Shown here: in pieces, positions 19,655 to 50,867 of the stretch
How positions within the stretch are numbered: position 1 is the first letter of the stretch
How the letters are laid out: the number at the start of each line of letters is the position of its first letter
Sequence record: NC_134264.1
Direction: 5' to 3' (one strand)
From: Escherichia phage Lindwurm
DNA length: 64,000 nucleotides
Notes under the pieces: model-generated
What the model saw: only the letters and a program-made list of their open reading frames with translations
What the model was told of the DNA's origin: nothing
Databases searched by the model: none
Position numbers and translations under genes: made by a program

Positions 19655-20451
19655 ATATTCATAAATTAGAGAACAGCGAGCCGATTACGCTGAGTGCAGA
19701 ATCCCAACCGGAGCGCATTGAATAGAGTCGGTGGGTTAGTTGTAAAACTAGTACACAGGGGGCGGCAATCCCGGTTAGTGGCTAGAACGTGTAAAATGAG
19801 GCGTCTGAAACCTCTCCCCTAAACTCTTCTCTAATTTATAAATAGTGGGGTGTGGAAATCACTTATGTAGTAACACTGCCGTACTAGTATAATTGGTATT
19901 ATCAAGCCGTAACTGGTGGAAGATGTAGGTTCGAATCCTACGGTCGGTAAGAACTGGATAACTGGTGCTTTTAATGTAAAAGCTTCCGAGGTTAGTTGCG
20001 CACTGCCTAAACCACGCGGTAGTTGGTTCCAGACTAACCAACCAGTCTGCTGAATAGTTTTATTACGATTTAACTATGTCCAGGCTAAAGAAGAACTTTA
20101 GAAGGTATTCTAGGATAGTGAAGTTCTTTCTCCATATCGGAGTAGTTTTTCAAGCTATCCCCAAAGTGGGAAATGCTGACATGAGAGATGTCACTAATGG
20201 TGCACAATAGCACAGGTAATTCGCGATAACTCCTGTTGAGTAGCAGCAAAAGGCGGGAAGTCATGACCCCAAGCCTAACCGAGTCCTCAATATACCGCAG
20301 GACATAACCACTAAGTCACCCTGACTTAAACTGGAAAATAATAGACGTTACCGTATTTTGTCTTGAAATACTTAATGAGTGAGACTTATGACTCTCCCGG
20401 TATCGTCTGTATTTTTAAGAGTTTTTACAAGAGTTCTTAAAAATACTTAAA

Positions 20452-20525
20452 CGGGGTGTAGTCTAAGGGAGAGGCAGGAGTCTTCTAAATTCCTTTATGC
20501 AGGTTCGAATCCTGTCACCTCGGCC
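20452..20525 (+). tRNA. tRNA-Arg (anticodon TCT)
   Basis: 7-bp acceptor CGGGGTG/CACCTCG; T-arm GCAGG-TTCGAAT-CCTGT; loop cTTCTaa; CCA encoded. Confidence 0.75.
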
Positions 20526-20560
20526 AATTTTATTAACTGTAACTAAAACAAAGGAAACAT

Positions 20561-23464: not shown

Positions 23465-23493
23465 TTGCTTGAATGCTATATTCTCTGTATAAT
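23465..23493 (+). promoter_or_regulatory. T5-type early promoter
   Basis: TTGCTT-17 bp-TATAAT. Confidence 0.65.
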
Positions 23494-23523
23494 ATATCTA
23501 TAAATTTGAGAGAGGAACCAAAT

Positions 23524-24063: not shown

Positions 24064-24152
24064 GGAAGAATAGCATAACGGTATTGCAGCAGATTGCTAA
24101 TCTGTCGGTTTGAAATATAGCCTTGTGGGTTCGATTCCCACTTCTTCCGCCA
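24064..24152 (+). tRNA. tRNA-Ser (anticodon GCT)
   Basis: Acceptor GGAAGAA/TTCTTCC; T-arm GTGGG-TTCGATT-CCCAC; loop ttGCTaa; long variable arm; CCA. Confidence 0.8.
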
Positions 24153-24158
24153 GATTTT

Positions 24159-24236
24159 GGTTCTCAAGCTCATATGGTATGAGCACCCAGCTCATAACTG
24201 GAAGGTACGTAGGTTCGAATCCTCGGGGAGCCACCA
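24159..24236 (+). tRNA. tRNA-Met-like (anticodon CAT), imperfect T-stem
   Basis: Acceptor GGTTCTC/GGGAGCC; D-stem GCTC/GAGC; loop ctCATaa; T-stem has 2 mismatches; CCA. Confidence 0.5.
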
Positions 24237-24254
24237 ATTAAATAGAGGTCACAA

Positions 24255-24443
24255 ATGGATCTATATATAGTTTATGTTGTGTTTATTCAAGATAGAGAAT
24301 ACCCGGATGAATATAAAAAAGGATATAGGTTAGCCAGAGCTACCTCTGAAGCCCAAGCTATGGATAAAGTGGCAGATTATATGATTACGGTAGAAAACGT
24401 ACACTATATCGACTACCTTGAAGCCTCAAAAGTAATTGACTAA
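24255..24443 (+). CDS. hypothetical protein
   Basis: 62-aa ORF after tRNA pair. Confidence 0.4.
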   Translation: MDLYIVYVVFIQDREYPDEYKKGYRLARATSEAQAMDKVADYMITVENVHYIDYLEASKVID

Positions 24444-24452
24444 GGAGACTAT

Positions 24453-24638
24453 ATGTCCAAGTTTCAAGAACTCAAGCAAGAGCTAGAAGAGTGTGCCTGC
24501 CCTGAGTGTAGGGGAATTGGTGAAAGTTCTGATGCAGAAGCAGGAGATACTTTTTGCAATATCTGGGTTTGCCCAAATTGCAATGGTACAGGTATTAATC
24601 CTAACTGTGGTATTTCCCTAGATATTGAACGAGGATAA
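24453..24638 (+). CDS. small Cys-rich zinc-ribbon-like protein
   Basis: CACPEC...CNIWVCPNC pairs; AAGGAG RBS. Confidence 0.45.
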   Translation: MSKFQELKQELEECACPECRGIGESSDAEAGDTFCNIWVCPNCNGTGINPNCGISLDIERG

Positions 24639-24738
24639 TACCTGTGAAACTAAAAGATTACTATATTGGTTGGTTTGTGGGACTAGTAGTAGGATTTTCA
24701 CTAGGCTATAATATGTATCAACTAATAAACTGATTACA

Positions 24739-24815
24739 TGGGGGTGTAATCGAATTGGCATAGGTACTGGACTTAAAATTCAGGTTTTGTGGGTTCGAAT
24801 CCCACCACCCCTACC
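24739..24815 (+). tRNA. tRNA-like gene (anticodon TAA, weak D-arm)
   Basis: Acceptor GGGGGTG/CACCCCT; T-arm GTGGG-TTCGAAT-CCCAC; loop cTTAAaa; no clean D-stem; CCA. Confidence 0.5.
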
Positions 24816-24991
24816 AAATTAAGGAAATAAGATGTATAGACATCCACCTCCGCCAACACGTCGTTCTAGAGAAGTTATTCTCATGGAGTTGACTAAAAAC
24901 TTCAAGGCAACTCTTGAAGATAGAGATCTAGGCACGGATGAAGACATTGATTTTATTTGTAGACTATTAAAGATGAAACTGGAGAAACAAC

Positions 24992-25198
24992 ATGGCTAAT
25001 CCTGAAATTACCGCACAACGTTTCATGCTTAAAGGTATGATTGCTGAGGCGGGTTTAACTCAAGAGGTTGCAGATTTTCATAAGCAATTTCTTGATATTA
25101 TAACTCTAGCTAAAGAAACTGGAGAAAAAGAACATGGAGCGGCAATTATGGCTATATCTCTTATTAGTCTAGACTTGGCTGAAGAATCTGGAGTTTAG
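24992..25198 (+). CDS. hypothetical protein
   Basis: 68-aa ORF. Confidence 0.45.
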   Translation: MANPEITAQRFMLKGMIAEAGLTQEVADFHKQFLDIITLAKETGEKEHGAAIMAISLISLDLAEESGV

Positions 25199-25228
25199 AT
25201 CCTCCAAACAGAATTTTTAAAAATGTAC

Positions 25229-25258
25229 TTGCCTTTTGCTTTAAATTTCTGGTATAAT
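25229..25258 (+). promoter_or_regulatory. T5-type early promoter
   Basis: TTGCCT-18 bp-TATAAT. Confidence 0.55.
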
Positions 25259-25288
25259 AGTTATATAAATTGATGAAGGAGTTAACGA

Positions 25289-25564
25289 ATGCAAAATCGT
25301 GTTATAGCAGCTGGTATTGAAAGTGCAATCTGTAAATCCTGGGAAGGCTGGGAAGGTGAGATTGAATGGCTTTATTTCTACGATGTAGAGCTTCTGCCGG
25401 AAATTAAAGCTAAATGTGTTGAAGCTGGCATGTCTCCAGATGCAAGAGCTGATATTGATATTTCAATGTCTGAACTTAAAGGTCGTGTAATCACTGTTAG
25501 TGATGAGGGCGAAGAAGTTTTTGAACTTCCGTTCTCCTTAACTGTCACTCCTAAGTTCGACTAA
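25289..25564 (+). CDS. hypothetical protein
   Basis: 91-aa ORF with AAGGAG RBS. Confidence 0.45.
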   Translation: MQNRVIAAGIESAICKSWEGWEGEIEWLYFYDVELLPEIKAKCVEAGMSPDARADIDISMSELKGRVITVSDEGEEVFELPFSLTVTPKFD

Positions 25565-25600
25565 CTAATACAGCATTGGGCAAGTTCTTTAAAATTTGAC

Positions 25601-25629
25601 TTGCCCAATACTATAAAACTTGGTATAAT
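25601..25629 (+). promoter_or_regulatory. promoter preceding tRNA cluster
   Basis: TTGCCC-17 bp-TATAAT. Confidence 0.5.
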
Positions 25630-25762
25630 ATTTATCTAATTTGGAAAGTTCTTTTTAAGGTAGTTCTTACTTTAGCAGAGTAAATTTTTGGCAGATGGCC
25701 CCCACCATTTTACCGATAACTCCTAGTCAGTGCGGTAACACTGGCTACCTTAAAGAGAATTT

Positions 25763-25850
25763 GGGCGTTTATTCCGTAAGTGGTAGCGGAGGGGACTGTA
25801 AATCCCTGGTCATTGCGACTCGAGTGGTTCGACTCCATTAACGCCCACCA
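25763..25850 (+). tRNA. tRNA-Tyr (anticodon GTA)
   Basis: Acceptor GGGCGTT/AACGCCC; stem GGGGA/TCCCT; loop ctGTAaa; long variable arm; CCA. Confidence 0.8.
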
Positions 25851-25857
25851 ATTTAAT

Positions 25858-25932
25858 GCACCTATCGTCTAGCGGTTAGGACACCACTCTTTCACAGTGG
25901 GAACACGAGTTCGATCCTCGTTGGGTGTGCCA
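25858..25932 (+). tRNA. tRNA-Glu (anticodon TTC)
   Basis: T-arm ACGAG-TTCGATC-CTCGT; stem CCACT/AGTGG; loop ctTTCac; CCA. Confidence 0.8.
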
Positions 25933-25941
25933 ATTAATAAT

Positions 25942-26012
25942 TGGGGTACGCATAGGTTGCAAATGGGCCTCCAAAACCCATGAAAAGGTTTCGAATACCT
26001 TTACCCCTGCCA
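25942..26012 (+). tRNA. tRNA-Trp-like (anticodon CCA), compact
   Basis: T-arm AAGGT-TTCGAAT-ACCTT; loop ctCCAaa with C-A closing mismatch; 3-bp D-stem; CCA. Confidence 0.5.
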
Positions 26013-26018
26013 AAATTT

Positions 26019-26093
26019 GCACCTTTAGCTGAGATGGATTAGCGCTTGCCTGAAGAGCTTGAGAGGTTCGTTCGATTCGAACAGGGTGCACCA
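26019..26093 (+). tRNA. tRNA-Phe-like (anticodon GAA)
   Basis: Acceptor GCACCTT/AGGGTGC; D-stem GCTG/TAGC; T-arm GTTCG-TTCGATT-CGAAC; loop ctGAAga; two U-U in anticodon stem. Confidence 0.55.
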
Positions 26094-26110
26094 ATTTGAG
26101 GGAGCTGCTG

Positions 26111-26383
26111 ATGCATCCTGAAAACTTCTTTATTTACTGCGCTGATAAGTCGCTGAAACGTAGAATTAACAAAGTCTATCATTATCGTGCTAGTCAACAG
26201 CCTTATGTATATGCTTTTGATGATGATCACATTCCACTAGAACAATTATCTTGTGATTACATGATATTGAAGAACTTTGACGAGACAAAGATCTCAAGCG
26301 TTCATAATCGACAGAATCCATTAACGTGGAAATATAAGAAGAAAAAGAAAGGCATCAAATTTTTAAAAAATGTAGTTGCTTAG
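26111..26383 (+). CDS. hypothetical protein
   Basis: 90-aa ORF from ATG 26111 with GAGGGA RBS. Confidence 0.45.
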   Translation: MHPENFFIYCADKSLKRRINKVYHYRASQQPYVYAFDDDHIPLEQLSCDYMILKNFDETKISSVHNRQNPLTWKYKKKKKGIKFLKNVVA

Positions 26384-26404
26384 TTTCCAAAAGTTCTGTA
26401 TAAT
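26376..26404 (+). promoter_or_regulatory. T5-type promoter preceding tRNA genes
   Basis: TTGCTT-17 bp-TATAAT. Confidence 0.6.
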
Positions 26405-26452
26405 AATTACATAAATTGAACTGGAGAAGCAACATGATAGAATAAGATAAAT

Positions 26453-26528
26453 CGACCGTTGGCTGAATGGCTTAGGCGAAGGATTGCAAATCCTTTTTAT
26501 GTGAGTTCAAATCTCATGCGGTCGTCCA
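26453..26528 (+). tRNA. tRNA-Cys (anticodon GCA)
   Basis: Acceptor CGACCGT/GCGGTCG; stem AAGGA/TCCTT; loop ttGCAaa; T-arm GTGAG-TTCAAAT-CTCAT; CCA. Confidence 0.8.
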
Positions 26529-26536
26529 AATTTTTA

Positions 26537-26619
26537 GGGTCGTTAGCCAAGTGGTTTGGCGGCGGATTGTTAATCCGTGTCGAAAGACAACGTAGGTTCG
26601 AATCCTACACGGCCCGCCA
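26537..26619 (+). tRNA. tRNA-Asn (anticodon GTT) with 13-nt variable region
   Basis: Acceptor GGGTCGT/ACGGCCC; D-stem GCCA/TGGC; loop ttGTTaa; T-arm GTAGG-TTCGAAT-CCTAC; CCA. Confidence 0.6.
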
Positions 26620-26721
26620 AATTCTGTGTAGAGTTAAGTAAACCGGTAGCCAACCAGCTATCATTGCTGATATCGAATTCAGCCACAGATACCGTTTTCA
26701 TTAATAACTGAGGAAACAAGC

Positions 26722-26907
26722 ATGTCCAAGAATGTAATTGCGCAGCTAGAAGTTCATCGTGATAGCACTATCAACAATATTGAAGTTGAGAAGAAATACA
26801 TCGAAGAACTTAAACATGATATACTGGTAAGTCTCAACCGTCTTAACGTACGAAAAGAGTTTCTTAAGGAACTTAATGCAGCTATTGAAAAACTCAAAGC
26901 TGAGTAA
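26722..26907 (+). CDS. hypothetical protein
   Basis: 61-aa coiled-coil-like ORF with GAGGAAAC RBS. Confidence 0.45.
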   Translation: MSKNVIAQLEVHRDSTINNIEVEKKYIEELKHDILVSLNRLNVRKEFLKELNAAIEKLKAE

Positions 26908-26916
26908 ATGAATTAT

Positions 26917-26993
26917 GCGACCGGGGCTGGCTTGGTAATGGTACTCCCCTGTCACGGGAGGGAATGTGGGTTCAAATCCCATCGGTCGCGCCA
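26917..26993 (+). tRNA. tRNA-Asp (anticodon GTC)
   Basis: Acceptor GCGACCG/CGGTCGC; stem CTCCC/GGGAG; loop ctGTCac; T-arm GTGGG-TTCAAAT-CCCAT; CCA. Confidence 0.8.
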
Positions 26994-27019
26994 AACTAAA
27001 CTAGCACGAGAAATATGCT

Positions 27020-27367
27020 ATGATTAATGCTAAAGAAGAATTGTTACTTGCCCTAAAGAATACTAATTCTGAAGTTAAGTGTATTAAGATAGAATTCGGT
27101 TATTATGGTGACAAAGAAGTTTGGGTATTGCCCGTAGGTTATACAGAAAAAGATATTGAAGATTTTCTAAATAATCTAGACTTTAAATATGATTCTGGTT
27201 ATGGTGGGCAATTGCTTTATGGTAACGTGTGGTTTACTGATGGAACTTGGTTAGAACGTGGTGAATACGACGGTTCTGAGTGGTGGGAATATAAGGCTAC
27301 GCCAGCAATCCCAGAAGAATGCCGAACAATTAATGGTGAAGTAGATCGTACTTTACTATTAAATTAA
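27020..27367 (+). CDS. hypothetical protein
   Basis: 115-aa ORF. Confidence 0.5.
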   Translation: MINAKEELLLALKNTNSEVKCIKIEFGYYGDKEVWVLPVGYTEKDIEDFLNNLDFKYDSGYGGQLLYGNVWFTDGTWLERGEYDGSEWWEYKATPAIPEECRTINGEVDRTLLLN

Positions 27368-27489
27368 CAAAATTTCAGTGCAGAACACGGAGCTAGCAAT
27401 TCGGAAGTGCTGACTCATGATAAGCTGCCTATGTACTTGCGAAGCGGTCGTGTCCAAGACTCGGACTCTTGCACTGAAAACAATCAAAC

Positions 27490-27610
27490 ATTCTAGCGTG
27501 GTTGATGGGGAAACCAGCTTGGCGAGGGCAGAAGCTCGTTCGATTCGAGTGAAAGAATGGTTCTCGTAAGTCCGCACAAGTGATAACAGGTTCGAGTCCT
27601 GTCTAGAATG
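27490..27610 (+). ncRNA. oversized tRNA-like element (~121 nt)
   Basis: Perfect 7-bp acceptor ATTCTAG/CTAGAAT and T-arm ACAGG-TTCGAGT-CCTGT enclosing ~95 nt with an inner T-arm-like hairpin. Confidence 0.4.
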
Positions 27611-27769
27611 ACACTATAAAGTTTACTTATTATGTAGGTTCCGGTAGACCGGCGGGTCTATTCTGGCATTTAAGAGAGGTCTCGCAAGCCTCTTTGTCAG
27701 CAGTGGGGTTGGTAGCCTCCAGGTGGCCTACACAATAAGTAAATTTATTAAAAATTCATTTGCTATTCT

Positions 27770-27798
27770 GCTTAATTCTCTGTATAATATATCTTATA
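27770..27798 (+). promoter_or_regulatory. T5-type early promoter
   Basis: TTGCTA-17 bp-TATAAT. Confidence 0.6.
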
Positions 27799-27820
27799 AA
27801 GTGAAGAGAAGGAAAGCTAA

Positions 27821-28018
27821 ATGAAGAAAGTTTTATTACTATCCGTATTCCTACTTACTGGTTGTTTTAAATTTGACTCAACCATTAATAAAGAGTATGA
27901 ATTTGCTAAAAATTTCTGTGGCGGAGAGAGTAATATAAAGAATTTCTACATATATAGTACGATTCCTAGTACCGTTTATTGTGTAGACGGACGAATTATT
28001 AATATTCCTCCACAATAA
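27821..28018 (+). CDS. small lipoprotein
   Basis: MKKVLLLSVFLLTGC signal peptide with lipobox LTGC. Confidence 0.5.
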   Translation: MKKVLLLSVFLLTGCFKFDSTINKEYEFAKNFCGGESNIKNFYIYSTIPSTVYCVDGRIINIPPQ

Positions 28019-28027
28019 AAGAATTAA

Positions 28028-28103
28028 CAGTGCGTAGCGCAGTTGGTAGCGTGGGAGCCTTGGATGCTTCGGGTCGCAGGTTCGAGTCCTGCCGCACTGA
28101 CCA
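28028..28103 (+). tRNA. tRNA-Pro (anticodon TGG)
   Basis: Acceptor CAGTGCG/CGCACTG; T-arm GCAGG-TTCGAGT-CCTGC; loop ctTGGat; CCA. Confidence 0.8.
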
Positions 28104-28109
28104 AACAAT

Positions 28110-28187
28110 TGCGGGTTAGATCTCTGGTAGAGATCACTAGTCTCATAAGCTAGAAAGAGGTAGGTTCGATTCCTGCACCCGCTTCCA
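28110..28187 (+). tRNA. tRNA-Met/Ile2 (anticodon CAT)
   Basis: Stem CTAGT/GCTAG; loop ctCATaa; T-arm GTAGG-TTCGATT-CCTGC; first acceptor pair mismatched; CCA. Confidence 0.65.
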
Positions 28188-28207
28188 TTTTAATAGAGGA
28201 TTTCGAA

Positions 28208-28375
28208 ATGAAAGTATTTCGATTAGTAGTAAGTGACAAACGTTCAGGTAAGAATACATCAAAATCCTTACTTGCTCATTACGGTAAAAATTGGGATGAA
28301 GTAATGGTAGAGTTTAGTACTAATCACCCTTACTTAAAAGTCCACTCTATTAAAGAAGTGTATAATGGTTACTAA
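28208..28375 (+). CDS. small hypothetical protein
   Basis: 55-aa ORF between tRNAs, hand-translated, AGAGGA RBS. Confidence 0.4.
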   Translation: MKVFRLVVSDKRSGKNTSKSLLAHYGKNWDEVMVEFSTNHPYLKVHSIKEVYNGY

Positions 28376-28376
28376 T

Positions 28377-28455
28377 AGATCGCTAGCTCAATAGGTTTAG
28401 TAGCATCCGACTTTTAATCGGAAGGTTCTGGGTTCGAGTCCCAGGCGATCTACCA
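28377..28455 (+). tRNA. tRNA-Lys (anticodon TTT)
   Basis: Acceptor AGATCGC/GCGATCT; stem TCCGA/TCGGA; loop ctTTTaa; T-arm CTGGG-TTCGAGT-CCCAG; CCA. Confidence 0.8.
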
Positions 28456-28473
28456 ATTTCAAGAAAAATGCAG

Positions 28474-28502
28474 TTGCTTAATGCTTAATTTCTTGTTATA
28501 AT
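28474..28502 (+). promoter_or_regulatory. T5-type promoter driving ORF-free segment and tRNAs
   Basis: TTGCTT-17 bp-TATAAT. Confidence 0.6.
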
Positions 28503-28834
28503 ATTTATATAAATTGATGCGAAAATAGCTGCCTAGATATCAGGTGTATGACGTCTACACTAGCAGAGCTACCGAAAAAGAGATCCTCAGGATAAACGTC
28601 GTAGCAAAATTAGTCTGATATCCATCAATTTAGTTCACTAAGGTATTAGCTTGACCTAGGACTGGCTGCCAAAAAGCACGATCCCTACGATTCGGGAGAA
28701 GTTCTAGATTAGTCCACTAGATTCAGCGGCAACTGAATAGTGTATCGGGTTTGCGAGATGACGCGGTTCCTTCCGCTCGAAGCGAAGGTGCTGTAGTTAC
28801 GCCGAGCTAATAGCCTTAGTAAACTAAAGAATTT

Positions 28835-28908
28835 GGGGATATAGTTTAATGGTAGAACATCTGCTTTGCACGCAGAAGACGAGGGTTCAACTCCCTCTTT
28901 CTCCACCA
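28835..28908 (+). tRNA. tRNA-Ala (anticodon TGC)
   Basis: Stem TCTGC/GCAGA; loop ttTGCac; T-arm GAGGG-TTCAACT-CCCTC; one acceptor mismatch; CCA. Confidence 0.7.
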
Positions 28909-28913
28909 AATTT

Positions 28914-28998
28914 GGGGCTATGCTGGAACTGGTAGACAATACGGCCTTAGATTCCGTAGCTTAAATGCGTGGGAGTTCGAGTCTCCCTAGCCCCACCA
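28914..28998 (+). tRNA. tRNA-Leu (anticodon TAG)
   Basis: Acceptor GGGGCTA/TAGCCCC; loop ctTAGat; long variable arm; T-arm GGGAG-TTCGAGT-CTCCC; CCA. Confidence 0.75.
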
Positions 28999-29014
28999 AC
29001 TTATAGGGTAATGT

Positions 29015-29599
29015 ATGCAGTTTGTACCAATAAAAGATGCACCAGGGTATTTAGTAAATGAAACAGGGGATGTGTTATCTACATTTACTAATAAAATTTT
29101 ATCAAGATATATAGTTGATGGATACCCTGCTGTAAAATTACAGATAAATGGTAAGCAAACTTCGGTACTTATACACCGAATTATTTCTCATGTATTTGGG
29201 GACTTATATAATCTATTTGACCCTGAATTAGAAGTAGATCACAAGGATAGAGATAGGCTGAATCTATCTAAAGATAATCTTCAAGTTTTGTCAAAAATAG
29301 AACATCAGAAGAAAACTAATAAAGATAATGGATGGTCTGATAGTAGAGTACCTTGCCCCTTATGTGGAAATCTAATGCTTCAGAGATCAGTAACATGTAC
29401 AAATTGTAAGCCAAAACCTACAGGAAAGTTAATAAAACCAGAATTGTCCTTAGAAGACATAACTGAAAAGGTTTTATTAATGGGGTGGGTTAAGGCAGCT
29501 AAAGATCTAGAAGTATCAGAGTCCACTTTACGTAGACGATATACTAAACTAACCGGATTAAGCCCAAAAGTATTAACAGAACAACGGAAAAGCAAATAG
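29015..29599 (+). CDS. HNH homing endonuclease
   Basis: IKDAPGYLVNETGDV N-terminal motif; VDHKDRDRLNLSKDNLQVL...EH HNH core; C-terminal HTH-like segment. Confidence 0.7.
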   Translation: MQFVPIKDAPGYLVNETGDVLSTFTNKILSRYIVDGYPAVKLQINGKQTSVLIHRIISHVFGDLYNLFDPELEVDHKDRDRLNLSKDNLQVLSKIEHQKKTNKDNGWSDSRVPCPLCGNLMLQRSVTCTNCKPKPTGKLIKPELSLEDITEKVLLMGWVKAAKDLEVSESTLRRRYTKLTGLSPKVLTEQRKSK

Positions 29600-29679
29600 A
29601 CTGGTGACTAAACCCGATTGGAAATCGGTTGAGTGGTAGCAATACCGCCTTATGGGTTCAACTCCCATCTTTTCCGCCA
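29586..29679 (+). tRNA. tRNA-Ser (anticodon GGA)
   Basis: Acceptor GGAAAAG/CTTTTCC; stem CCGA/TCGG; loop ttGGAaa; long variable arm; T-arm ATGGG-TTCAACT-CCCAT; CCA. Confidence 0.7.
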
Positions 29680-29691
29680 AACAATTTATAC

Positions 29692-29786
29692 GGTAGGTCA
29701 ATCCAACGGCTGGCGCTGGACTCCGACTTGAAATCGGTTGATCGTAGTGATACGGTGTAAGGGTTCGATCCCCTTACCTACCTCCA
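29692..29786 (+). tRNA. tRNA-Ser (anticodon TGA)
   Basis: Acceptor GGTAGGT/ACCTACC; loop ctTGAaa; long variable arm; T-arm AAGGG-TTCGATC-CCCTT; CCA. Confidence 0.75.
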
Positions 29787-29791
29787 AATCT

Positions 29792-29923
29792 TGAAGTATG
29801 CCGGAATCGGTAGACGGGGCTGCCTAAAAGGTTTATAGAGAACATCCACTCTCTACAACATACCTCATAAAGCGGCTGAGATAAATGGTCTATCTCGTGA
29901 AGGTTCAAGTCCTTCTGCTTCTT
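29792..29923 (+). ncRNA. oversized tRNA-like element (~132 nt)
   Basis: Perfect T-arm GAAGG-TTCAAGT-CCTTC and 6/7-bp acceptor enclosing hairpins AGAG..CTCT and GAGATA..TATCTC; no CCA. Confidence 0.35.
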
Positions 29924-30152
29924 GATACACCTATGGCTCAAAGTGTAACGGTGCTATTTGATACTCTTAGTAAGACTTTCCCGACATGCGTTCGGGAGTA
30001 AGCTGCTAAGGCTAGAGTAGAAGAGTTTCGGAGAGCCGCCACAATTGAAAATTCGTACTCGTCTTGAGCTGCGTGCAATAGGAGATAACTTGATTAGTAT
30101 TCTAGAACATGCTAATTGAGGAAGGTTTCGCTAACCCTGCGAGTTTTCAATT

Positions 30153-30229
30153 GTGGCTATATCATAATTGGTTAATGATCCTGATTGTGAATCAGGCCTA
30201 TGTGGATTCGAATTCCACTAGCCACCCCA
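30153..30229 (+). tRNA. tRNA-His (anticodon GTG)
   Basis: Acceptor GTGGCTA/TAGCCAC; D-stem TCAT/ATGA; stem CCTGA/TCAGG; loop ttGTGaa; CCA. Confidence 0.8.
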
Positions 30230-30287
30230 AATTAACTTAAATAGGGAATAAAATATAGCTGATTTCTGCAAACAATGCTCCGTTGAT

Positions 30288-30452
30288 ATGTGGGGTAGAG
30301 ATACTGGTGATCTTTCTGGTTTGATTACAGAAGCTGAGGTCAAAGAAGGTTATGGTGCAGTTGTGATTTGCGAAGGATGCGGAGTTATTCGAGTAGATCA
30401 TGAAGGCAAACGTTTAGAAGAACAGGAAAACTTAGGAGAAACAAATGAGTAA
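30288..30452 (+). CDS. small hypothetical protein
   Basis: 54-aa hand-translated ORF; no clear RBS. Confidence 0.3.
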   Translation: MWGRDTGDLSGLITEAEVKEGYGAVVICEGCGVIRVDHEGKRLEEQENLGETNE

Positions 30453-30681
30453 TGCTTTAATTAGTGAAATTATGTTAACACGTCTTGCAGAACTGCAAAC
30501 TCTTCGAGATGAATCTCAGAATAACTTAGCGTACCATAAACAAATGGTAGATACTCTTACTACTCGTATTGATACTTACGAGCGTGATATTGCAGCATTA
30601 CAAGCTCTATTCTCTGTACCAGCACCAGATACGTTAGAACAGCCTGCTGTTTCTCAGCCAGTAGAAACAGCATCTAGTTAA
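30445..30681 (+). CDS. hypothetical protein
   Basis: 78-aa ORF with GGAGAAAC RBS. Confidence 0.45.
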   Translation: MSNALISEIMLTRLAELQTLRDESQNNLAYHKQMVDTLTTRIDTYERDIAALQALFSVPAPDTLEQPAVSQPVETASS

Positions 30682-30690
30682 TAGCATTCT

Positions 30691-30766
30691 TGGGATGTAG
30701 ATCAATTGGCAGATCGTCGGCCTCTGACTCCGAAGGTTCCACGTTCGATCCGTGGCATCCCAGCCA
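30691..30766 (+). tRNA. tRNA-Gln (anticodon CTG)
   Basis: Acceptor TGGGATG/CATCCCA; D-stem GATC/GATC; loop ctCTGac; T-arm CCACG-TTCGATC-CGTGG; CCA. Confidence 0.7.
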
Positions 30767-30772
30767 AACAAT

Positions 30773-30848
30773 TGGAGAGTAGTGTAACGGTTAGCACAAC
30801 GGCCTTTGACTCCGTTAATGGTAGGTTCGATTCCTCCTTCTCCAGCCA
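30773..30848 (+). tRNA. tRNA-Gln (anticodon TTG)
   Basis: Acceptor TGGAGAG/TTCTCCA; loop ctTTGac; T-loop TTCGATT; CCA. Confidence 0.7.
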
Positions 30849-30856
30849 AGTAATAA

Positions 30857-30932
30857 GCGGTTAAGCACACGGGTTGTGTCGCAGGCCTTCCAAGCCTAGC
30901 TGAGTAGGGTTCGATTCCCTCTAGCCGCTCCA
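30857..30932 (+). tRNA. tRNA-Gly (anticodon TCC)
   Basis: Acceptor GCGGTTA/TAGCCGC; stem AGGC/GCCT; loop ctTCCaa; T-loop TTCGATT; CCA. Confidence 0.65.
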
Positions 30933-30948
30933 ACTTTAAGGAAACATT

Positions 30949-31200
30949 ATGCACGTTTTTGAGTTTCGTAATAAAAGTACCGATAAACGAGTTATTGTTA
31001 TTGGAGAAACATACCGAGCATACGAACAAACTGACGGATCTGTTATACTGAATGATGAGAAAGGGGGTTTTAGCTTTTATCCAGAAGAACCTTATGAAGA
31101 GTTTCGAAAACAATTTAACCTAGACTGGAGAAAGCATTTAAACACTGTTGCTTCATCTGTAGTATTGCCAACTACCAGTACTGTGCTCTCTAATGGCTGA
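30949..31200 (+). CDS. hypothetical protein
   Basis: 83-aa ORF with AAGGAAAC RBS. Confidence 0.45.
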   Translation: MHVFEFRNKSTDKRVIVIGETYRAYEQTDGSVILNDEKGGFSFYPEEPYEEFRKQFNLDWRKHLNTVASSVVLPTTSTVLSNG

Positions 31201-31357
31201 TAACCTAAAAGTCAAGATCGATAAACAAAAGAAACGTGTAGAAGTAGAGATTGGTGAAGAACGTGTAGCCTTCACCTTTGAATTTCTACAACAAATGGCA
31301 ATGACAGTTATGACTGATAAGTCTCCTGTTATTGAAAAAGAAATCCCGTTGAAATAA
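31193..31357 (+). CDS. small hypothetical protein
   Basis: 54-aa hand-translated ORF, start overlapping stop of preceding gene. Confidence 0.35.
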   Translation: MADNLKVKIDKQKKRVEVEIGEERVAFTFEFLQQMAMTVMTDKSPVIEKEIPLK

Positions 31358-31365
31358 CGGGTTCT

Positions 31366-31452
31366 GCTGGGTTGGCAGAATGGTTGAATGCACCTGATTT
31401 GTAATCAGGAGGAGTAATCCCACTGCAGGTTCGAATCCTGTGCCCAGCACCA
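31366..31452 (+). tRNA. tRNA-Thr (anticodon TGT) with ~15-nt variable region
   Basis: Acceptor GCTGGGT/GCCCAGC; stem CCTGA/TCAGG; loop ttTGTaa; T-arm GCAGG-TTCGAAT-CCTGT; CCA. Confidence 0.6.
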
Positions 31453-31466
31453 ATTTAAGGACTAGT

Positions 31467-31634
31467 ATGTTTAAACTACTAGTAGTTATCTGGTATAGTC
31501 AATCAAACAGAGCTAATACCTCCCACGTTATAGACTTTAATACTAAAAACGAAGCTGAAAAAGCATACGCTAATTTAATAGAACGTAATAAAGAATCTCG
31601 TAGTATAGTTTATGAAGTGACTAAACTCTATTAA
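31467..31634 (+). CDS. small hypothetical protein
   Basis: 55-aa ORF from ATG 31467 with AAGGA RBS. Confidence 0.35.
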   Translation: MFKLLVVIWYSQSNRANTSHVIDFNTKNEAEKAYANLIERNKESRSIVYEVTKLY

Positions 31635-31642
31635 AAATTCAT

Positions 31643-31671
31643 TTGCTTTCTCTCTTATTTCTTGTTATAAT
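31643..31671 (+). promoter_or_regulatory. T5-type early promoter
   Basis: TTGCTT-17 bp-TATAAT. Confidence 0.65.
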
Positions 31672-31701
31672 ATTTATATAAATTAATGAGAGGGAAACCA
31701 A

Positions 31702-31995
31702 ATGAAACGTTATCTTTCTGTTGTGTTCCAAACTGGTGGTCAACGCTATACCTATGAATTTCCTAGCTCTTGGAAGATCAAAGAAGGTGATCAAGTAGTA
31801 GTGTTAACACCGCGTGAGGGTTTCAAGGTAGTAACGGTTAAGCAAGTATTTCCAAAAGAGCATGAACCAGCTAAAGGCATTCGCTATAAGATGATTCATG
31901 GTGTAGTTCGTCAAGTACCACGAGCGGAAGTCGAAATCAAAGTAGATAAAGATGGTAAACTTAAATATACCTCTTGCTTAGACGAGTTGCTATAA
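31702..31995 (+). CDS. hypothetical protein
   Basis: 97-aa ORF with GAGAGGGAAAC RBS. Confidence 0.5.
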   Translation: MKRYLSVVFQTGGQRYTYEFPSSWKIKEGDQVVVLTPREGFKVVTVKQVFPKEHEPAKGIRYKMIHGVVRQVPRAEVEIKVDKDGKLKYTSCLDELL

Positions 31996-32201
31996 TGAGG
32001 ATTACTTTCACAGAAAAGATCATGAGTAATGGTGTTATGATCATTACCGCATGGGATGGTAGTCAGTGGTGTAGTGTTTCAGGTATTAAGCCTGAAAAAC
32101 AAACACTAGAAAATATCTCAAAGATTAAGCGAATAATGGCAGAACGTGCACGACTTCCAGGTGCGCCTAGAAATGGCAAACGTTCTGCTGTAAAATGTTA
32201 A
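31995..32201 (+). CDS. hypothetical protein
   Basis: 68-aa ORF; ATG overlaps preceding stop (TAATG). Confidence 0.45.
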   Translation: MRITFTEKIMSNGVMIITAWDGSQWCSVSGIKPEKQTLENISKIKRIMAERARLPGAPRNGKRSAVKC

Positions 32202-32202
32202 T

Positions 32203-32279
32203 ACTTCGGTAGCTTAGCGATCTAAAGCACTCGGCTGATAACCGAGAGATCGGGGGTTTAAATCCCTCCCGGAGTACCA
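32203..32279 (+). tRNA. tRNA-Ile (anticodon GAT)
   Basis: Acceptor ACTTCGG/CCGGAGT; stem CTCGG/CCGAG; loop ctGATaa; T-arm GGGGG-TTTAAAT-CCCTC; CCA. Confidence 0.8.
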
Positions 32280-32375
32280 AATTTAGGAATTAAGACTATG
32301 CGTCCAGGAAAGTTTAAAAAAGCTAATTGGACTAAAGAGTATAAAGAATACTTACTTAGTCTAGTAAAACATAAT

Positions 32376-32451
32376 AGTTAGTTGGCAGAGCGGTTATGCA
32401 CCTCCTTCATACGGAGCGATTACAGTGGTTCAAATCCACTACTAACTACCA
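32376..32451 (+). tRNA. tRNA-Met (anticodon CAT)
   Basis: Acceptor AGTTAGT/ACTAACT; loop ttCATac; T-arm AGTGG-TTCAAAT-CCACT; CCA. Confidence 0.75.
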
Positions 32452-50191: not shown

Positions 50192-50235
50192 ATTTCTAGG
50201 AGACATTTTTTGAAAACACTTTTCCAGAAATTACT

Positions 50236-50836: not shown

Positions 50837-50838
50837 AA

Positions 50839-50860: not shown

Positions 50861-50867
50861 TAAATAC

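What the first reader, a model, noticed from the sequence alone, without database searches (positions are those of the whole stretch)
24064..32451. Large tRNA set with duplicated isoacceptors and several atypical tRNAs
By hand I find about 25 tRNA genes (Arg, Ser x3, Met/Ile-CAT x3, Tyr, Glu, Trp, Phe, Cys, Asn, Asp, Pro, Lys, Ala, Leu x1-2, His, Gln x2, Gly, Thr, Ile), nearly all with encoded CCA. Asn(GTT) and Thr(TGT) carry 13-15-nt variable regions, Trp(CCA) is compact with a 3-bp D-stem, Phe(GAA) has two U-U pairs in the anticodon stem, and two CAT tRNAs have imperfect stems. No CTA/TTA/TCA suppressor anticodon was found.
Basis: seen in the sequence. Interest (0 to 1): 0.45.

Follow-up and report, generated by a model that had tools for sequence, protein, structure and literature searches.

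The report
T5-type phage tRNA gene cluster

Summary
The window is a Tequintavirus (T5-like) genome: 24000-32500 is 97.8% identical to Escherichia phage HK6. It holds 24 tRNA genes in 24064-32451, plus Arg(UCU) at 20452-20526, which lies outside the stated range. All 25 are on the + strand and all encode CCA. They cover 19 amino acids (no Val) and include no suppressor.

Sixteen are at least 95% identical to annotated T5 tRNAs. Nine or ten are non-orthologous alleles sitting in the same slots.

Every atypical feature is real:
- Asn(GUU) and Thr(UGU) have variable arms made of a 3-bp stem and a GNRA tetraloop.
- The 71-nt Trp is missed by ARAGORN and Rfam but is 99% identical to T5 T5t20.
- Phe has two U·U pairs.

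The variable-arm Thr and Asn types covary and are widespread in phages. The Thr type is also native to some bacterial phyla. Neither occurs in 5,426 complete E. coli genomes.

Published work shows that T5 tRNAs counter tRNA-cleaving defences (PARIS: Lys, Thr, Asn; retron-Eco7: Tyr). In this window exactly those PARIS-relevant alleles differ from T5's.

Verdict: already known, with modest residual novelty in the variable-arm architecture.

The parts
   Evidence: ARAGORN; Rfam 49.3 bits; 100% identical to T5 T5t25
24064..24152 (+). tRNA-Ser(GCU), 89 nt, class II
   Evidence: 100% identical to T5 T5t24
24159..24236 (+). tRNA-Ile2(CAU), 78 nt, with two T-stem mismatches
   Evidence: Rfam 38.2 bits; relaxed ARAGORN; 100% identical to T5 T5t23, annotated Ile and convertible to a suppressor
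24740..24816 (+). tRNA-Leu(UAA), 77 nt, class-I format: it lacks the long variable arm but keeps a Leu-type D-loop (GAATTGG) and A73. T5 has no orthologue here; the hegA HNH gene occupies this slot in T5.
   Evidence: at least 99% identical in 291 phage records
25763..25850 (+). tRNA-Tyr(GUA), 88 nt, class II; 81% identical to the T5 allele
   Evidence: T5 and SP15 tRNA-Tyr counter retron-Eco7
25858..25932 (+). tRNA-Glu(UUC), 75 nt; allele not orthologous to T5's
25942..26012 (+). Compact tRNA-Trp(CCA), 71 nt: 3-bp D-stem, 5-nt D-loop, variable region of 3-4 nt, U1·U72
   Evidence: Not found by ARAGORN or Rfam. 99% identical to T5 T5t20. Minimum-free-energy fold is a cloverleaf. Present at 95% identity or more in 115 phage records and almost never annotated there
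26019..26093 (+). tRNA-Phe(GAA), 75 nt, with two U·U pairs in the anticodon stem
   Evidence: 99% identical to T5 T5t19. A cited study reports recognition of T5 tRNA-Phe by E. coli PheRS
26453..26528 (+). tRNA-Cys(GCA), 76 nt
   Evidence: 100% identical to T5 T5t18
26537..26619 (+). tRNA-Asn(GUU), 83 nt, with a variable arm GTC-GAAA-GAC followed by AAC. Positions 36-41 read UAAUCC, as in the host tRNA.
   Evidence: Not orthologous to T5's 78-nt Asn. The arm covaries across phage families. Comparison of positions 36-41
26622..26693 (+). Homologue of T5 RNA3 ('putative tRNA-like RNA')
   Evidence: Local blastn against T5, 98.6% identity; T5 annotation
26917..26993 (+). tRNA-Asp(GUC), 77 nt
   Evidence: 99% identical to T5 T5t16
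27489..27734 (+). Homologues of T5 stable RNAs RNA2 (27489-27613) and RNAIV (27632-27734)
   Evidence: 96.8% and 93.2% identity; T5 annotation
28028..28103 (+). tRNA-Pro(UGG), 76 nt; allele not orthologous to T5's
28110..28187 (+). Initiator tRNA-fMet(CAU), 78 nt, with a U1·U72 mismatch
   Evidence: 99% identical to T5 T5t14, annotated as initiator
28377..28455 (+). tRNA-Lys(UUU), 79 nt, with an enlarged D-loop. Positions 36-41 read UAAUCG. Only 71% identical to the T5 allele.
28644..28815 (+). Homologue of T5 stable RNA RNA2H. T5's tRNA-Val, which neighbours RNA2H in T5, is absent here.
   Evidence: 97.7% identity; no hit for Val
28835..28908 (+). tRNA-Ala(UGC), 74 nt; allele not orthologous to T5's
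   Evidence: (72.3 bits)
28914..28998 (+). tRNA-Leu(UAG), 85 nt, class II
   Evidence: 100% identical to T5 T5t10
29015..29599 (+). HNH homing-endonuclease gene (hegC homologue, 194 aa); overlaps the 5' end of Ser(GGA)
   Evidence: 94% identical to T5 hegC; Pfam HNH_3 and PHROG 59
29586..29679 (+). tRNA-Ser(GGA), 94 nt
   Evidence: 95% identical to T5 T5t09
29692..29786 (+). tRNA-Ser(UGA), 95 nt, U73; allele not orthologous to T5's; coordinates corrected here
   Evidence: Rfam Sec model, 38.3 bits at 29692-29782. Acceptor stem GGTAGGT/ACCTACC pairs 7/7. Annotated as 95 nt in T5_ev212 and Bas34
29790..30151 (+). Homologues of T5 stable RNAs RNA1, RNAI and RNAIII
   Evidence: 86-99% identity; T5 annotation
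30153..30229 (+). tRNA-His(GUG), 77 nt; the gene has T rather than G at position -1
30691..30766 (+). tRNA-Gln(CUG), 76 nt; allele not orthologous to T5's
30773..30848 (+). tRNA-Gln(UUG), 76 nt; allele not orthologous to T5's
30857..30932 (+). tRNA-Gly(UCC), 76 nt
   Evidence: Relaxed ARAGORN. 99% identical to T5 T5t04, annotated as convertible to an effective suppressor
31366..31452 (+). tRNA-Thr(UGU), 87 nt, class-II-like: 3-bp D-stem, 11-nt D-loop, and a variable arm A-GGA-GTAA-TCC-CACT. Positions 36-41 read UAAUCA, identical to E. coli thrU.
   Evidence: Not orthologous to T5's 75-nt Thr. Covariation. Comparison of positions 36-41
32203..32279 (+). tRNA-Ile(GAU), 77 nt
   Evidence: 100% identical to T5 T5t02
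32376..32451 (+). Elongator tRNA-Met(CAU), 76 nt, with C27·C43
   Evidence: 97% identical to T5 T5t01
19822..20451 (+). Homologue of T5 'RNAX'. It includes a weak tRNA-like element at 19877-19950 ('Ser(ACU)', no CCA, mismatched acceptor stem).
   Evidence: Rfam 29.9 bits; relaxed ARAGORN

Best explanation
What it is. The region is the tRNA-rich early region of a T5-like (Tequintavirus) phage. It holds 25 tRNA genes, all on one strand and all with encoded CCA. Small ORFs, an HNH homing-endonuclease gene and T5-type stable RNAs lie between them.

How the tRNAs are made (inferred). They are transcribed from several early promoters together with the small ORFs and are cut out by host processing enzymes. 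Because CCA is encoded, no CCA addition is needed.

What the set does. It gives the phage its own decoding capacity for 19 amino acids, with two uses. First, it replaces host tRNAs that are cleaved or depleted during infection by tRNA-targeting defences. This has been shown for T5 alleles: Lys, Thr and Asn against PARIS AriB, and Tyr against retron-Eco7. For the alleles in this window it is inferred. Second, it serves the A/U-ending codons that the AT-rich phage uses and E. coli rarely does (AGA, CUA, AUA, GGA, UUA).

Why the set is a mosaic (inferred). Individual slots are exchanged between related phages, probably helped by the homing endonucleases. As a result this phage carries non-T5 alleles of Lys, Thr, Asn, Tyr, Glu, Pro, Ala, Ser(UGA) and both Gln, gains Leu(UAA), and lacks Val.

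The atypical tRNAs are genuine, conserved variants. Thr and Asn have a short GNRA-capped variable arm, Leu(UAA) lacks the long arm, Trp is compact, and Phe has U·U pairs. Only Trp is of unproven function.
For: Identity and synteny:
- 97.8% identity over 98% of the region to phage HK6, and 633 phage records match.
- Gene order matches HK6, T5_ev212 and T5.
- 16 of 25 tRNAs are at least 95% identical to T5's.
- All eight T5 stable RNAs and hegC have homologues in the window.
- The HNH gene is confirmed by Pfam and PHROGs.

tRNA quality: Rfam and ARAGORN results. All genes end in CCA, and 23 of 25 are followed by an A/U-rich trailer.

Function of T5 alleles: GenBank notes record suppressor conversion. 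T5 tRNA-Lys, Thr and Asn neutralise PARIS. T5 and SP15 tRNA-Tyr neutralise retron-Eco7.

Codon usage: phage GC3 is 0.32 against 0.57 for E. coli. Codons read by the U34 tRNAs are enriched relative to the host: AGA 8.6x, CUA 4.9x, AUA 4.0x, GGA 3.1x, UUA 2.7x, ACA 2.3x, CCA 2.2x.

Variable-arm alleles are real:
- The stem covaries. In Asn it is GTC/GAC, GTTC/GAAC, GTCA/TGAC and ATCC/GGAT in different phages.
- 57 of 90 Thr variable regions form at least 3 bp plus a tetraloop, against 13.8 expected from shuffles.
- All three stem pairs show double changes in 14-18 of 30 sequences.

Indirect in vivo support: phage Bas33 carries the same 87-nt Thr and a variable-arm Asn but no Lys(UUU). According to PMC12409363 it is rescued from PARIS by T5 tRNA-Lys alone.
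Against: - No expression, charging or cleavage data exist for the alleles in this window.
- Overall, codons with a Watson-Crick cognate phage tRNA are not significantly enriched (Mann-Whitney p=0.19).
- GUA is 2.3x enriched, yet Val(UAC) is missing. Codon matching therefore cannot explain the composition of the set.
- The count of promoter-like sites is not above the shuffled expectation (29 against 35), so co-transcription rests on T5's annotation.
- The window's Thr and Asn keep the exact host sequence at the AriB cleavage site (UAAUCA and UAAUCC). Their resistance to PARIS is therefore not predicted by the published substitution rule.
- The T5 tRNA region is dispensable in the laboratory, as shown by the deletion mutants cited.
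- Trp is invisible to both detectors, and T5's record says it could not be made a suppressor.
Confidence: 0.82

Rival explanations
1. Codon-usage compensation only. The tRNAs exist solely to supply decoders for codons that the AT-rich phage uses and the host reads poorly, and they have no role against host defences.
For: Phage GC3 is 0.32 against 0.57 for the host. Every U34 tRNA in a four- or six-codon family matches a codon enriched 1.3-8.6x, including the classical E. coli rare codons AGA, CUA, AUA and GGA.
Against: - GUA is 2.3x enriched but there is no Val tRNA.
- The G34 tRNAs (Asn, Asp, His, Tyr, Phe, Cys) are cognate to C-ending codons that the phage under-uses (ratios 0.5-0.8).
- The overall test is not significant (p=0.19).
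- Experiments show that T5 tRNA-Lys, Thr and Asn defeat PARIS and that tRNA-Tyr defeats retron-Eco7.
Confidence: 0.12
2. The atypical members are pseudogenes or software mis-parses rather than working tRNAs. The candidates are Trp, variable-arm Asn and Thr, Phe, the CAU tRNAs and Ser(UGA).
For: - Trp is not detected by ARAGORN even when relaxed, nor by Rfam at E<=10.
- T5's note says Trp, Asn, Thr, Phe and Met could not be converted to amber suppressors.
- Relaxed ARAGORN drew Ser(UGA) with three acceptor-stem mismatches.
- The element at 19877-19950 does look degenerate.
Against: - The Ser(UGA) mismatches come from a 4-nt mis-registration. The true stem pairs 7/7.
- Asn and Thr score 60.0 and 58.6 bits and their extra arm covaries.
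- Failure to convert to a suppressor is expected where the anticodon is an identity element, as it is for ThrRS, AsnRS, PheRS, MetRS and TrpRS (established knowledge).
- A cited study reports recognition of T5 tRNA-Phe by E. coli PheRS.
- Trp is conserved at 95% identity or more in 115 genomes. It differs from T5's copy by one base, which turns a G·U pair into G-C in the acceptor stem, and it folds as a cloverleaf.
- The Bas33 rescue logic implies that the 87-nt Thr works in vivo.
Confidence: 0.08
3. The variable arm of Thr and Asn has no adaptive meaning in the phage. It is an inherited architecture acquired by horizontal transfer from lineages where such tRNAs are the native form.
For: - Variable-arm Thr(UGU) genes occur as chromosomal genes in conserved synteny in at least 8 Eremiobacterota genomes, in Spirosoma, in Kiritimatiellia and in Acetobacteraceae.
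- The type is common in environmental viral contigs unrelated to enterobacteria.
- In a small unbiased sample there is no clear association between arm presence and the sequence at positions 39-41.
Against: - The arm is maintained by compensatory change within phages.
- In T5-like phages it occurs in exactly the isoacceptors that AriB cuts.
- Arm-bearing alleles keep the host-like 36-41 sequence while the arm-less phage alleles (T5, Stubb) are substituted at position 39.
- The type is absent from 5,426 complete E. coli genomes.
Confidence: 0.5
4. The variable-arm tRNAs are identity-switched. They would be charged by SerRS, LeuRS or TyrRS because of the extra arm, so that ACA or AAY codons are recoded.
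For: A long variable arm is the main SerRS determinant (established knowledge). The Thr D-arm (3 bp, loop GAATGGTTGAA) resembles Leu-type class II D-arms, and Thr has A73, the LeuRS determinant.
Against: - G1-C72 and C2-G71 are near-invariant in 30 variable-arm Thr sequences, and the UGU anticodon is fixed. These are the ThrRS identity elements (established knowledge).
- Asn keeps GUU and G73, the AsnRS identity elements.
- The stems are only 2-5 bp, shorter than tRNA-Ser arms.
- The type is apparently a native chromosomal Thr(UGU) gene in several bacterial phyla.
Confidence: 0.04

Closest known systems
Bacteriophage T5 tRNA gene region (T5t01-T5t25, NC_005859 28.0-40.8 kb; also called the 'tRNA-rich region')
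   Same: Same genus, same gene order and same strand. 16 of 25 tRNAs are at least 95% identical. The window has the same stable RNAs (RNAX, RNA1, RNA2, RNA3, RNAI, RNAIII, RNAIV, RNA2H), the same hegC HNH gene and the same flanking Toprim-domain and lipoprotein genes.
   Different: - Nine or ten slots hold non-orthologous alleles: Tyr (81% identical), Glu, Asn, Pro, Lys, Ala, Ser(UGA), Gln(CUG), Gln(UUG) and Thr.
- Leu(UAA) replaces hegA.
- Val(UAC), hegA and hegD are absent.
- T5's Thr (75 nt) and Asn (78 nt) are ordinary class I tRNAs.
PARIS-evading T5 tRNAs (tRNA-Lys(UUU), Thr(UGU), Asn(GUU); Burman 2024, Belukhina 2025)
   Same: The same three isoacceptors are encoded at the same genomic slots, and they differ in sequence from the host tRNAs.
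   Different: - T5's alleles are substituted at positions 39-41 next to the AriB cut site: UAAACC, UAAGCA and UAAGUU.
- The window's Thr and Asn keep the host sequence (UAAUCA, UAAUCC) and instead differ in architecture (variable arm and D-arm).
- Its Lys differs only at position 41 (UAAUCG) and in the D-loop.
- Resistance has not been tested for these alleles.
Class II (long-variable-arm) tRNAs: bacterial Leu, Ser, Tyr and Sec
   Same: The variable region is 13-15 nt and forms a stem-loop between the anticodon and T arms. The Thr allele also has the 3-bp D-stem and large D-loop typical of class II.
   Different: - The isotypes are Thr and Asn, which are class I in textbooks and in E. coli.
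- The arm is short (2-5 bp) and usually capped by a GNRA tetraloop.
- Conversely, the window's Leu(UAA) has lost the arm.
Non-canonical variable-arm tRNAs (allo-tRNAs, Mukai 2017; nev-tRNAs, Hamashima 2016)
   Same: Both are tRNAs with a variable arm attached to anticodons that normally belong to class I isotypes. Some of the published ones were found in phages.
   Different: - Allo-tRNAs have 8/4 or 9/3 acceptor/T branches and Ser-type identity. The ones here are 7/5 and keep Thr or Asn identity elements.
- Nothing here points to recoding.
T4-type phage tRNA clusters with the SegB homing endonuclease
   Same: Both are clustered tRNA genes with an embedded homing endonuclease that promotes inheritance of the region. 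The T4-like phages Mineola and PX29 carry the same variable-arm Asn and Thr types.
   Different: The phage family is different, the endonuclease is GIY-YIG (SegB) rather than HNH, and the sets are smaller (8-20 tRNAs).

Membership tests
T5-type (Tequintavirus) tRNA gene region | Nucleotide similarity and conserved gene order with the tRNA region of T5 and its relatives | tested here: met
   97.8% identity over 98% of the region to HK6, and 633 matching phage records. Slot-by-slot synteny with T5, HK6 and T5_ev212. 16 of 25 tRNAs at least 95% identical to T5's.
T5-type (Tequintavirus) tRNA gene region | tRNA genes interspersed with small ORFs, HNH homing-endonuclease genes and T5 stable or tRNA-like RNAs | tested here: met
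   Small + strand ORFs belonging to PHROG families. HNH gene at 29015-29599. All eight T5 stable RNAs have homologues.
T5-type (Tequintavirus) tRNA gene region | Transcription from early promoters and production of mature tRNAs during infection | not testable with these tools
   Consensus promoter-like sites lie upstream of Ser(GCU), Tyr and Pro (24020, 25601, 27760), but their overall count is not above shuffles. There are no expression data.
Canonical tRNA (Rfam RF00005 / ARAGORN cloverleaf) | Score at or above the gathering threshold, or a default ARAGORN call | tested here: met
   Met for 22 of 25 genes. Ser(UGA) and Gly are found only at relaxed thresholds. Trp is not detected at all; this feature is not met for Trp.
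Class II (long-variable-arm) tRNA | Variable region longer than 10 nt that forms a base-paired arm | tested here: met
   Thr: A-GGA-GTAA-TCC-CACT. Asn: GTC-GAAA-GAC-AAC. The stem is supported by double compensatory changes.
Class II (long-variable-arm) tRNA | Isotype restricted to Leu, Ser, Tyr (bacteria) or Sec | tested here: not met
   The anticodons are UGU and GUU, with Thr-type (G1-C72, C2-G71) and Asn-type (G73) identity elements.
PARIS (AriB)-resistant phage tRNA | Isoacceptor is one of the AriB targets: Lys(UUU), Thr(UGU) or Asn(GUU) | tested here: met
   All three are present. Targets as described in PMC12409363.
PARIS (AriB)-resistant phage tRNA | Substitutions at positions 39-41 around the 40|41 cleavage site relative to the host tRNA | tested here: not met
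   Thr reads UAAUCA and Asn reads UAAUCC, both identical to E. coli thrU and asnT. Lys reads UAAUCG and differs only at position 41.
PARIS (AriB)-resistant phage tRNA | Not cleaved by activated AriB; rescues infection on PARIS+ cells | not testable with these tools
   The only evidence is indirect. Bas33 carries the same variable-arm Thr and is rescued by T5 tRNA-Lys alone.
Suppressor tRNA | Anticodon CUA, UUA or UCA | tested here: not met
   None is found in any ARAGORN run, including the relaxed ones.
allo-tRNA | 8/4 or 9/3 acceptor/T-stem configuration with Ser-type identity | tested here: not met
   The variable-arm Thr and Asn have 7-bp acceptor stems and 5-bp T stems.

The most novel reading that the evidence does not exclude
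The short GNRA-capped variable arm and class-II-like core of the phage Thr(UGU) and Asn(GUU) alleles act as a structural anti-determinant against nucleases that cut the anticodon stem, such as PARIS AriB. This would let the tRNA keep a fully host-like anticodon stem-loop, and therefore normal modification, charging and decoding, while escaping cleavage. It would be a second evasion strategy, distinct from the point substitutions used by T5's own alleles. The mirror-image loss of the arm in Leu(UAA) and Leu(UAG) would be the same trick against arm-dependent enzymes.

The reading is supported only by three things. The isoacceptors coincide with AriB's targets. In a few non-independent alleles, arm-bearing tRNAs keep the host 36-41 sequence while arm-less phage alleles are substituted. 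And Bas33 is rescued from PARIS by T5 tRNA-Lys alone.

It is weakened by the native occurrence of variable-arm Thr in several bacterial phyla.
Probability: 0.2. Interest if true: 0.6.

Novelty: already known. Interest (0 to 1): 0.3.

Why it matters
As a locus it adds little. T5's tRNA region has been studied since the 1980s, and near-identical sequences are already in GenBank.

Three points have some value.

First, standard annotation misses or mis-registers several genes. The 71-nt Trp is unannotated in almost all of 115 genomes, and Ser(UGA) is mis-placed by 4 nt. tRNA counts for T5-like phages are therefore systematically low.

Second, Thr(UGU) and Asn(GUU) tRNAs with a structured, GNRA-capped variable arm form large families. 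They covary and occur in phages of several families. The Thr type is also native to some bacterial phyla. This contradicts the textbook restriction of long variable arms to Leu, Ser, Tyr and Sec, and I found no description of it in the searchable literature.

Third, in T5-like phages these architectures sit in exactly the isoacceptors cut by PARIS AriB and keep the host cleavage-site sequence. That gives a direct experiment on what AriB recognises beyond the cut site, a question the PARIS authors left open.

Tried and rejected
- Finding Bas33 and Bas34. I guessed BASEL accession numbers to locate these phages. Searches returned unrelated phages, and one search returned the wrong part of the Bas33 genome. 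The supplement of the BASEL paper then gave the right accessions.
- Association between arm and cut-site sequence. I tested whether presence of the variable arm goes with retention of U39-C40, using tRNAs not selected by my search patterns. The sample was too small: 9 Thr and 27 Asn sequences. No clear trend appeared. The pattern-selected sets cannot be used because the patterns fixed positions 39-40.
- Prior description of variable-arm Thr or Asn tRNAs. Four literature searches (plus 78) and word searches in the PARIS, retron and eLife papers found nothing. This shows absence only in the open-access library.
- Link between the arm-less Leu tRNAs and bacterial Schlafen nucleases. The idea came from human SLFN11, which cuts class II tRNAs. 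The paper reports different targets, namely Lys, Met, Ala, Val, Phe and Ile(CAU). I rejected the link as unsupported.
- Is the small Toprim protein upstream of the cluster an RNase M5-like enzyme? The search against solved-structure sequences and NCBIfam gave no support. I did not pursue it by structure prediction.
- Promoter and terminator scan. Counts were not above shuffled expectation, so it gives no independent evidence for operon structure.
- Claim that the Eremiobacterota variable-arm Thr lies in a thrU-tyrU-glyT-thrT-tuf operon. On inspection it is on the opposite strand, next to a Tyr-Gly-Thr(GGU) cluster, and no tuf gene lies within the fetched 8 kb.

Full report
**1. Observation check**

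ARAGORN at default settings finds 21 tRNA genes in the window, all on the + strand and 20 of them inside 24064-32451. Rfam's tRNA model finds 21 at gathering score, 29.9-72.3 bits. The two lists differ. Relaxed runs reconcile them:
- ARAGORN -ps adds CAU at 24159, Ser(UGA), Gly(UCC) and a weak element at 19877.
- Rfam at relaxed threshold picks up Tyr, Ser(GGA), Ser(UGA) and Gly through the Sec model.

The 71-nt stretch 25942-26012 is nevertheless 70/71 identical to the annotated T5 tRNA-Trp, and its minimum-free-energy fold is a cloverleaf.

The census is therefore 24 tRNA genes in the stated range.

Every specific structural claim checks out:
- The variable regions are 13 nt (Asn) and 15 nt (Thr).
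- Trp has a 3-bp D-stem.
- Phe has two U·U pairs.
- The CAU tRNAs have imperfect stems.
- There is no suppressor anticodon.
- All 25 genes encode CCA.

Two corrections are needed. Ser(UGA) is 29692-29786, with a perfectly paired acceptor stem; relaxed ARAGORN was off by 4 nt. The 'duplicates' are distinct anticodons, or distinct identities that share CAU.

**2. What the locus is**

The 8.5 kb is 97.8% identical over 98% of its length to Escherichia phage HK6 and matches 633 phage records, nearly all of them T5-like Salmonella, Escherichia and Klebsiella phages. Gene order matches HK6, T5_ev212 and the T5 reference slot for slot.

The T5 record annotates 25 tRNAs (T5t01-25), eight 'stable RNAs', early promoters and several HNH endonuclease genes in this region. 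In the window:
- 16 tRNAs are at least 95% identical to T5's.
- All eight stable RNAs have homologues.
- The hegC HNH gene is present at 29015-29599 and overlaps Ser(GGA), as it does in T5.

The CAU genes can therefore be named by homology: Ile2 (24159), initiator fMet (28110) and elongator Met (32376).

The rest of the window is consistent with a T5-like genome. Positions 50-64 kb hold pre-early genes next to the receptor-binding protein gene, 92-94% identical to relatives.

**3. Mosaic alleles**

Nine or ten slots hold alleles that are not orthologous to T5's: Tyr (81% identical), Glu, Asn, Pro, Lys, Ala, Ser(UGA), both Gln and Thr. Leu(UAA) sits where T5 has hegA. Val(UAC), hegA and hegD are missing.

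Other T5-like phages carry other combinations. Spacing between genes also varies: Cys and Asn are 8 nt apart here and 152 nt apart in HK6. Exchange of slots helped by homing endonucleases is the likely cause. This is an inference by analogy with T4 SegB.

**4. The atypical tRNAs**

*Phe, Ile2, Gly and fMet.* These are 99-100% identical to T5 genes. T5's record states that Ile2 and Gly can be converted to amber suppressors. A cited study reports recognition of T5 tRNA-Phe by E. coli PheRS.

*Trp.* It is conserved at 95% identity or more in 115 phage genomes but is almost never annotated there. Its single difference from T5's copy turns a G·U pair into G-C in the acceptor stem. Its function is still unproven.

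It is only 77 nt, so it lacks the long arm that all bacterial Leu tRNAs have. It keeps a Leu-type D-loop and A73 and is at least 99% identical in 291 records.

*Asn (83 nt) and Thr (87 nt).* These are entirely different sequences from T5's class I Asn (78 nt) and Thr (75 nt). Their variable regions form a 3-bp stem capped by a GNRA tetraloop: GTC-GAAA-GAC in Asn and GGA-GTAA-TCC in Thr.

**5. The variable-arm family**

*Distribution in phages.*
- The Thr allele occurs in 101 phage records at 80% coverage or more. An Aeromonas T4-like phage has an 85-nt relative.
- The Asn type occurs in 524 records, including Novosibvirus and the T4-like Jiaodavirus and its relatives.

*Covariation.*
- The Asn stem is GTC/GAC, GTTC/GAAC, GTCA/TGAC and ATCC/GGAT in different phages. 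The Thr stem is GGA/TCC in this window and CC/GG in the Aeromonas phage.
ARAGORN on the fetched loci gave 58 distinct long Thr sequences and 22-24 distinct long Asn sequences.
- The variable region has a common plan: 1 nt, a 2-5 bp stem, a loop, the returning strand of the stem, then a 3-4 nt tail. The loop is GNRA in 54 of 90 Thr and 15 of 26 Asn sequences.
- At least 3 bp plus a tetraloop occurs in 57 of 90 Thr variable regions, against a shuffled mean of 13.8 and maximum of 25.
- On 30 Thr sequences of matching layout, all cells pair, and each of the three arm pairs shows double changes in 14-18 sequences. These 30 were chosen for having the hairpin, so the unselected 57/90 figure is the fairer measure.

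*Bacteria.* The architecture is not phage-specific. A scan of one genome per GTDB species found long Thr(UGU) in 41 of 80 fetched loci. It lies in conserved synteny next to a Tyr-Gly-Thr(GGU) cluster in eight Eremiobacterota genomes, and as single genes in Spirosoma, Kiritimatiellia and Acetobacteraceae.

*The host.* Neither the Thr nor the Asn allele matches anything in 5,426 complete E. coli genomes. E. coli's own thrU and asnT are class I.

**6. Function**

Published experiments show that T5 tRNA-Lys(UUU), Thr(UGU) and Asn(GUU) together neutralise the PARIS defence. Its AriB nuclease cuts the host versions between positions 40 and 41 in the motif U36AAUC|A/C. T5 and SP15 tRNA-Tyr neutralise retron-Eco7.

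Comparing positions 36-41:

| tRNA | E. coli | T5 | This window |
|---|---|---|---|
| Thr(UGU) | UAAUCA | UAAGCA | UAAUCA |
| Asn(GUU) | UAAUCC | UAAGUU | UAAUCC |
| Lys(UUU) | UAAUCA | UAAACC | UAAUCG |

The three isoacceptors relevant to PARIS are thus among the slots where this phage differs from T5. Its Thr and Asn keep the host cut-site sequence and differ instead in architecture.

Indirect evidence that the variable-arm Thr works and is enough under AriB attack comes from phage Bas33. It has the same 87-nt Thr, a variable-arm Asn and no Lys(UUU). It is reported to be rescued from PARIS by T5 tRNA-Lys alone, whereas T7, which has no tRNAs, also needs Thr.

Bas34 needed all three T5 tRNAs. 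Its annotated Asn turns out to be a deletion chimera: the 5' part of the variable-arm Asn is fused to the 3' part of fMet, leaving a broken acceptor stem.

Codon usage supports a second role. Phage GC3 is 0.32 against 0.57 for E. coli, and the codons read by the U34 tRNAs are enriched 1.3-8.6x (AGA, CUA, AUA, GGA, UUA, ACA, CCA). The overall test is not significant, however, and GUA is enriched although Val is missing.

**7. Rivals**

- *Codon compensation alone* is contradicted by the published defence experiments and by the Val gap.
- *Pseudogenes or mis-parses* is rejected for every gene except possibly Trp.
- *Identity switching* is unlikely, because the Thr elements (G1-C72, C2-G71, UGU) and the Asn elements (GUU, G73) are conserved.
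- *The variable arm is inherited baggage, not an adaptation.* I cannot separate this from the adaptive reading. The native bacterial occurrences favour it. The coincidence with AriB's targets and the small contrast between arm and substitution favour adaptation. An unbiased sample was too small to decide.

**8. Verdict**

The finding is real and correctly read, but it is the classical T5 tRNA region and near-identical sequences are already deposited. It is already known.

Residual interest lies in the variable-arm Thr and Asn and the arm-less Leu architectures. I could not find them described in the searchable literature. They suggest a concrete, testable question about how AriB recognises its substrates.

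Noticed in passing
L012 (Escherichia phage SelmaRatti / Bas34, MZ501103) 10598-10681: The gene annotated tRNA-Asn in Bas34 is a deletion chimera. The 5' part is the variable-arm Asn, identical to the window's up to GTAGGTTCGA. The 3' part is the T-arm and acceptor strand of fMet. The acceptor stem has three mismatches and ARAGORN does not call the gene. This would explain why Bas34 needed T5 tRNA-Asn for rescue from PARIS in PMC12409363.
   Followed up: yes
window 23473-24042 (+): A 189-aa ORF ends 22 nt before the first tRNA gene. It contains only a Toprim domain (Pfam Toprim_2, 25 bits; PHROG 'DNA primase') and is the homologue of T5.076. A similar gene sits next to the tRNA-Lys genes in Proteus phage Stubb. 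AriB and RNase M5 are also Toprim nucleases, so a role in tRNA processing or in countering AriB is conceivable. Sequence searches against solved structures and NCBIfam gave no support.
   Followed up: partly
window 24740-24816; also T5_ev212, Bas33 and Stubb Leu(UAG) of 77-78 nt (L002, L011, L006): Leu tRNAs in class I format, without the long variable arm. In the IMG/VR sample 10 of 19 Leu(UAG) and 5 of 26 Leu(UAA) sequences were short. Conversely, 9 of 16 Ile(UAU) and a few Met, Trp and His tRNAs were long. Exchange of tRNA architecture between classes seems common in phages.
   Followed up: partly
window 30152-30153: The tRNA-His gene has T, not G, at position -1. Its acceptor stem (GUGGCUA/UAGCCAC) and C73 are the same as in E. 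coli tRNA-His. E. coli tRNA-His carries a genome-encoded G-1 that matters for HisRS (this last point is from my own knowledge, not a tool result). T5's record annotates the gene as 78 nt, including this T.
   Followed up: no
window, 3' flanks of all 25 tRNA genes: In 23 of 25 genes the encoded CCA is followed by A and then an A/U-rich run (CCAAAUU, CCAAUUU, CCAAACAAU). This may be a conserved 3'-processing or RNase E-type signal.
   Followed up: no
window 19877-19950: A weak tRNA-like element ('Ser(ACU)'; Rfam 29.9 bits against a threshold of 29; no CCA; two acceptor-stem mismatches). It lies inside the homologue of T5 'RNAX', a 719-nt stable RNA of unknown function upstream of tRNA-Arg. HK6 annotates it as tRNA-Ser.
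   Followed up: partly
window 26622-26693, 27489-27734, 28644-28815, 29790-30151: These are homologues (86-99% identical) of the T5 'stable RNAs' RNA3, RNA2, RNAIV, RNA2H, RNA1, RNAI and RNAIII. T5's record calls several of them tRNA-like and gives no function for any. None reaches any Rfam threshold.
   Followed up: partly
window 50000-64000: Pre-early genes (A1/A2-type DNA transfer proteins and the dmp 5'-deoxynucleotidase) lie next to the receptor-binding tail protein and receptor-blocking lipoprotein genes. The window therefore crosses the junction of the genome ends, which indicates a permuted assembly or one with collapsed terminal repeats. This part is only 92-94% identical to the nearest relatives, against 97.8% for the tRNA region.
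   Followed up: partly
L253, L257, L270, L293, L297, L300, L324, L330 (Eremiobacterota genomes); L255, L264 and others (Spirosoma): Bacterial chromosomal Thr(UGU) genes of 81-88 nt carry a GNRA-capped variable arm. In Eremiobacterota they are always oriented divergently from a Tyr-Gly-Thr(GGU) cluster. This appears to be a native class-II-like tRNA-Thr in these lineages.
   Followed up: partly
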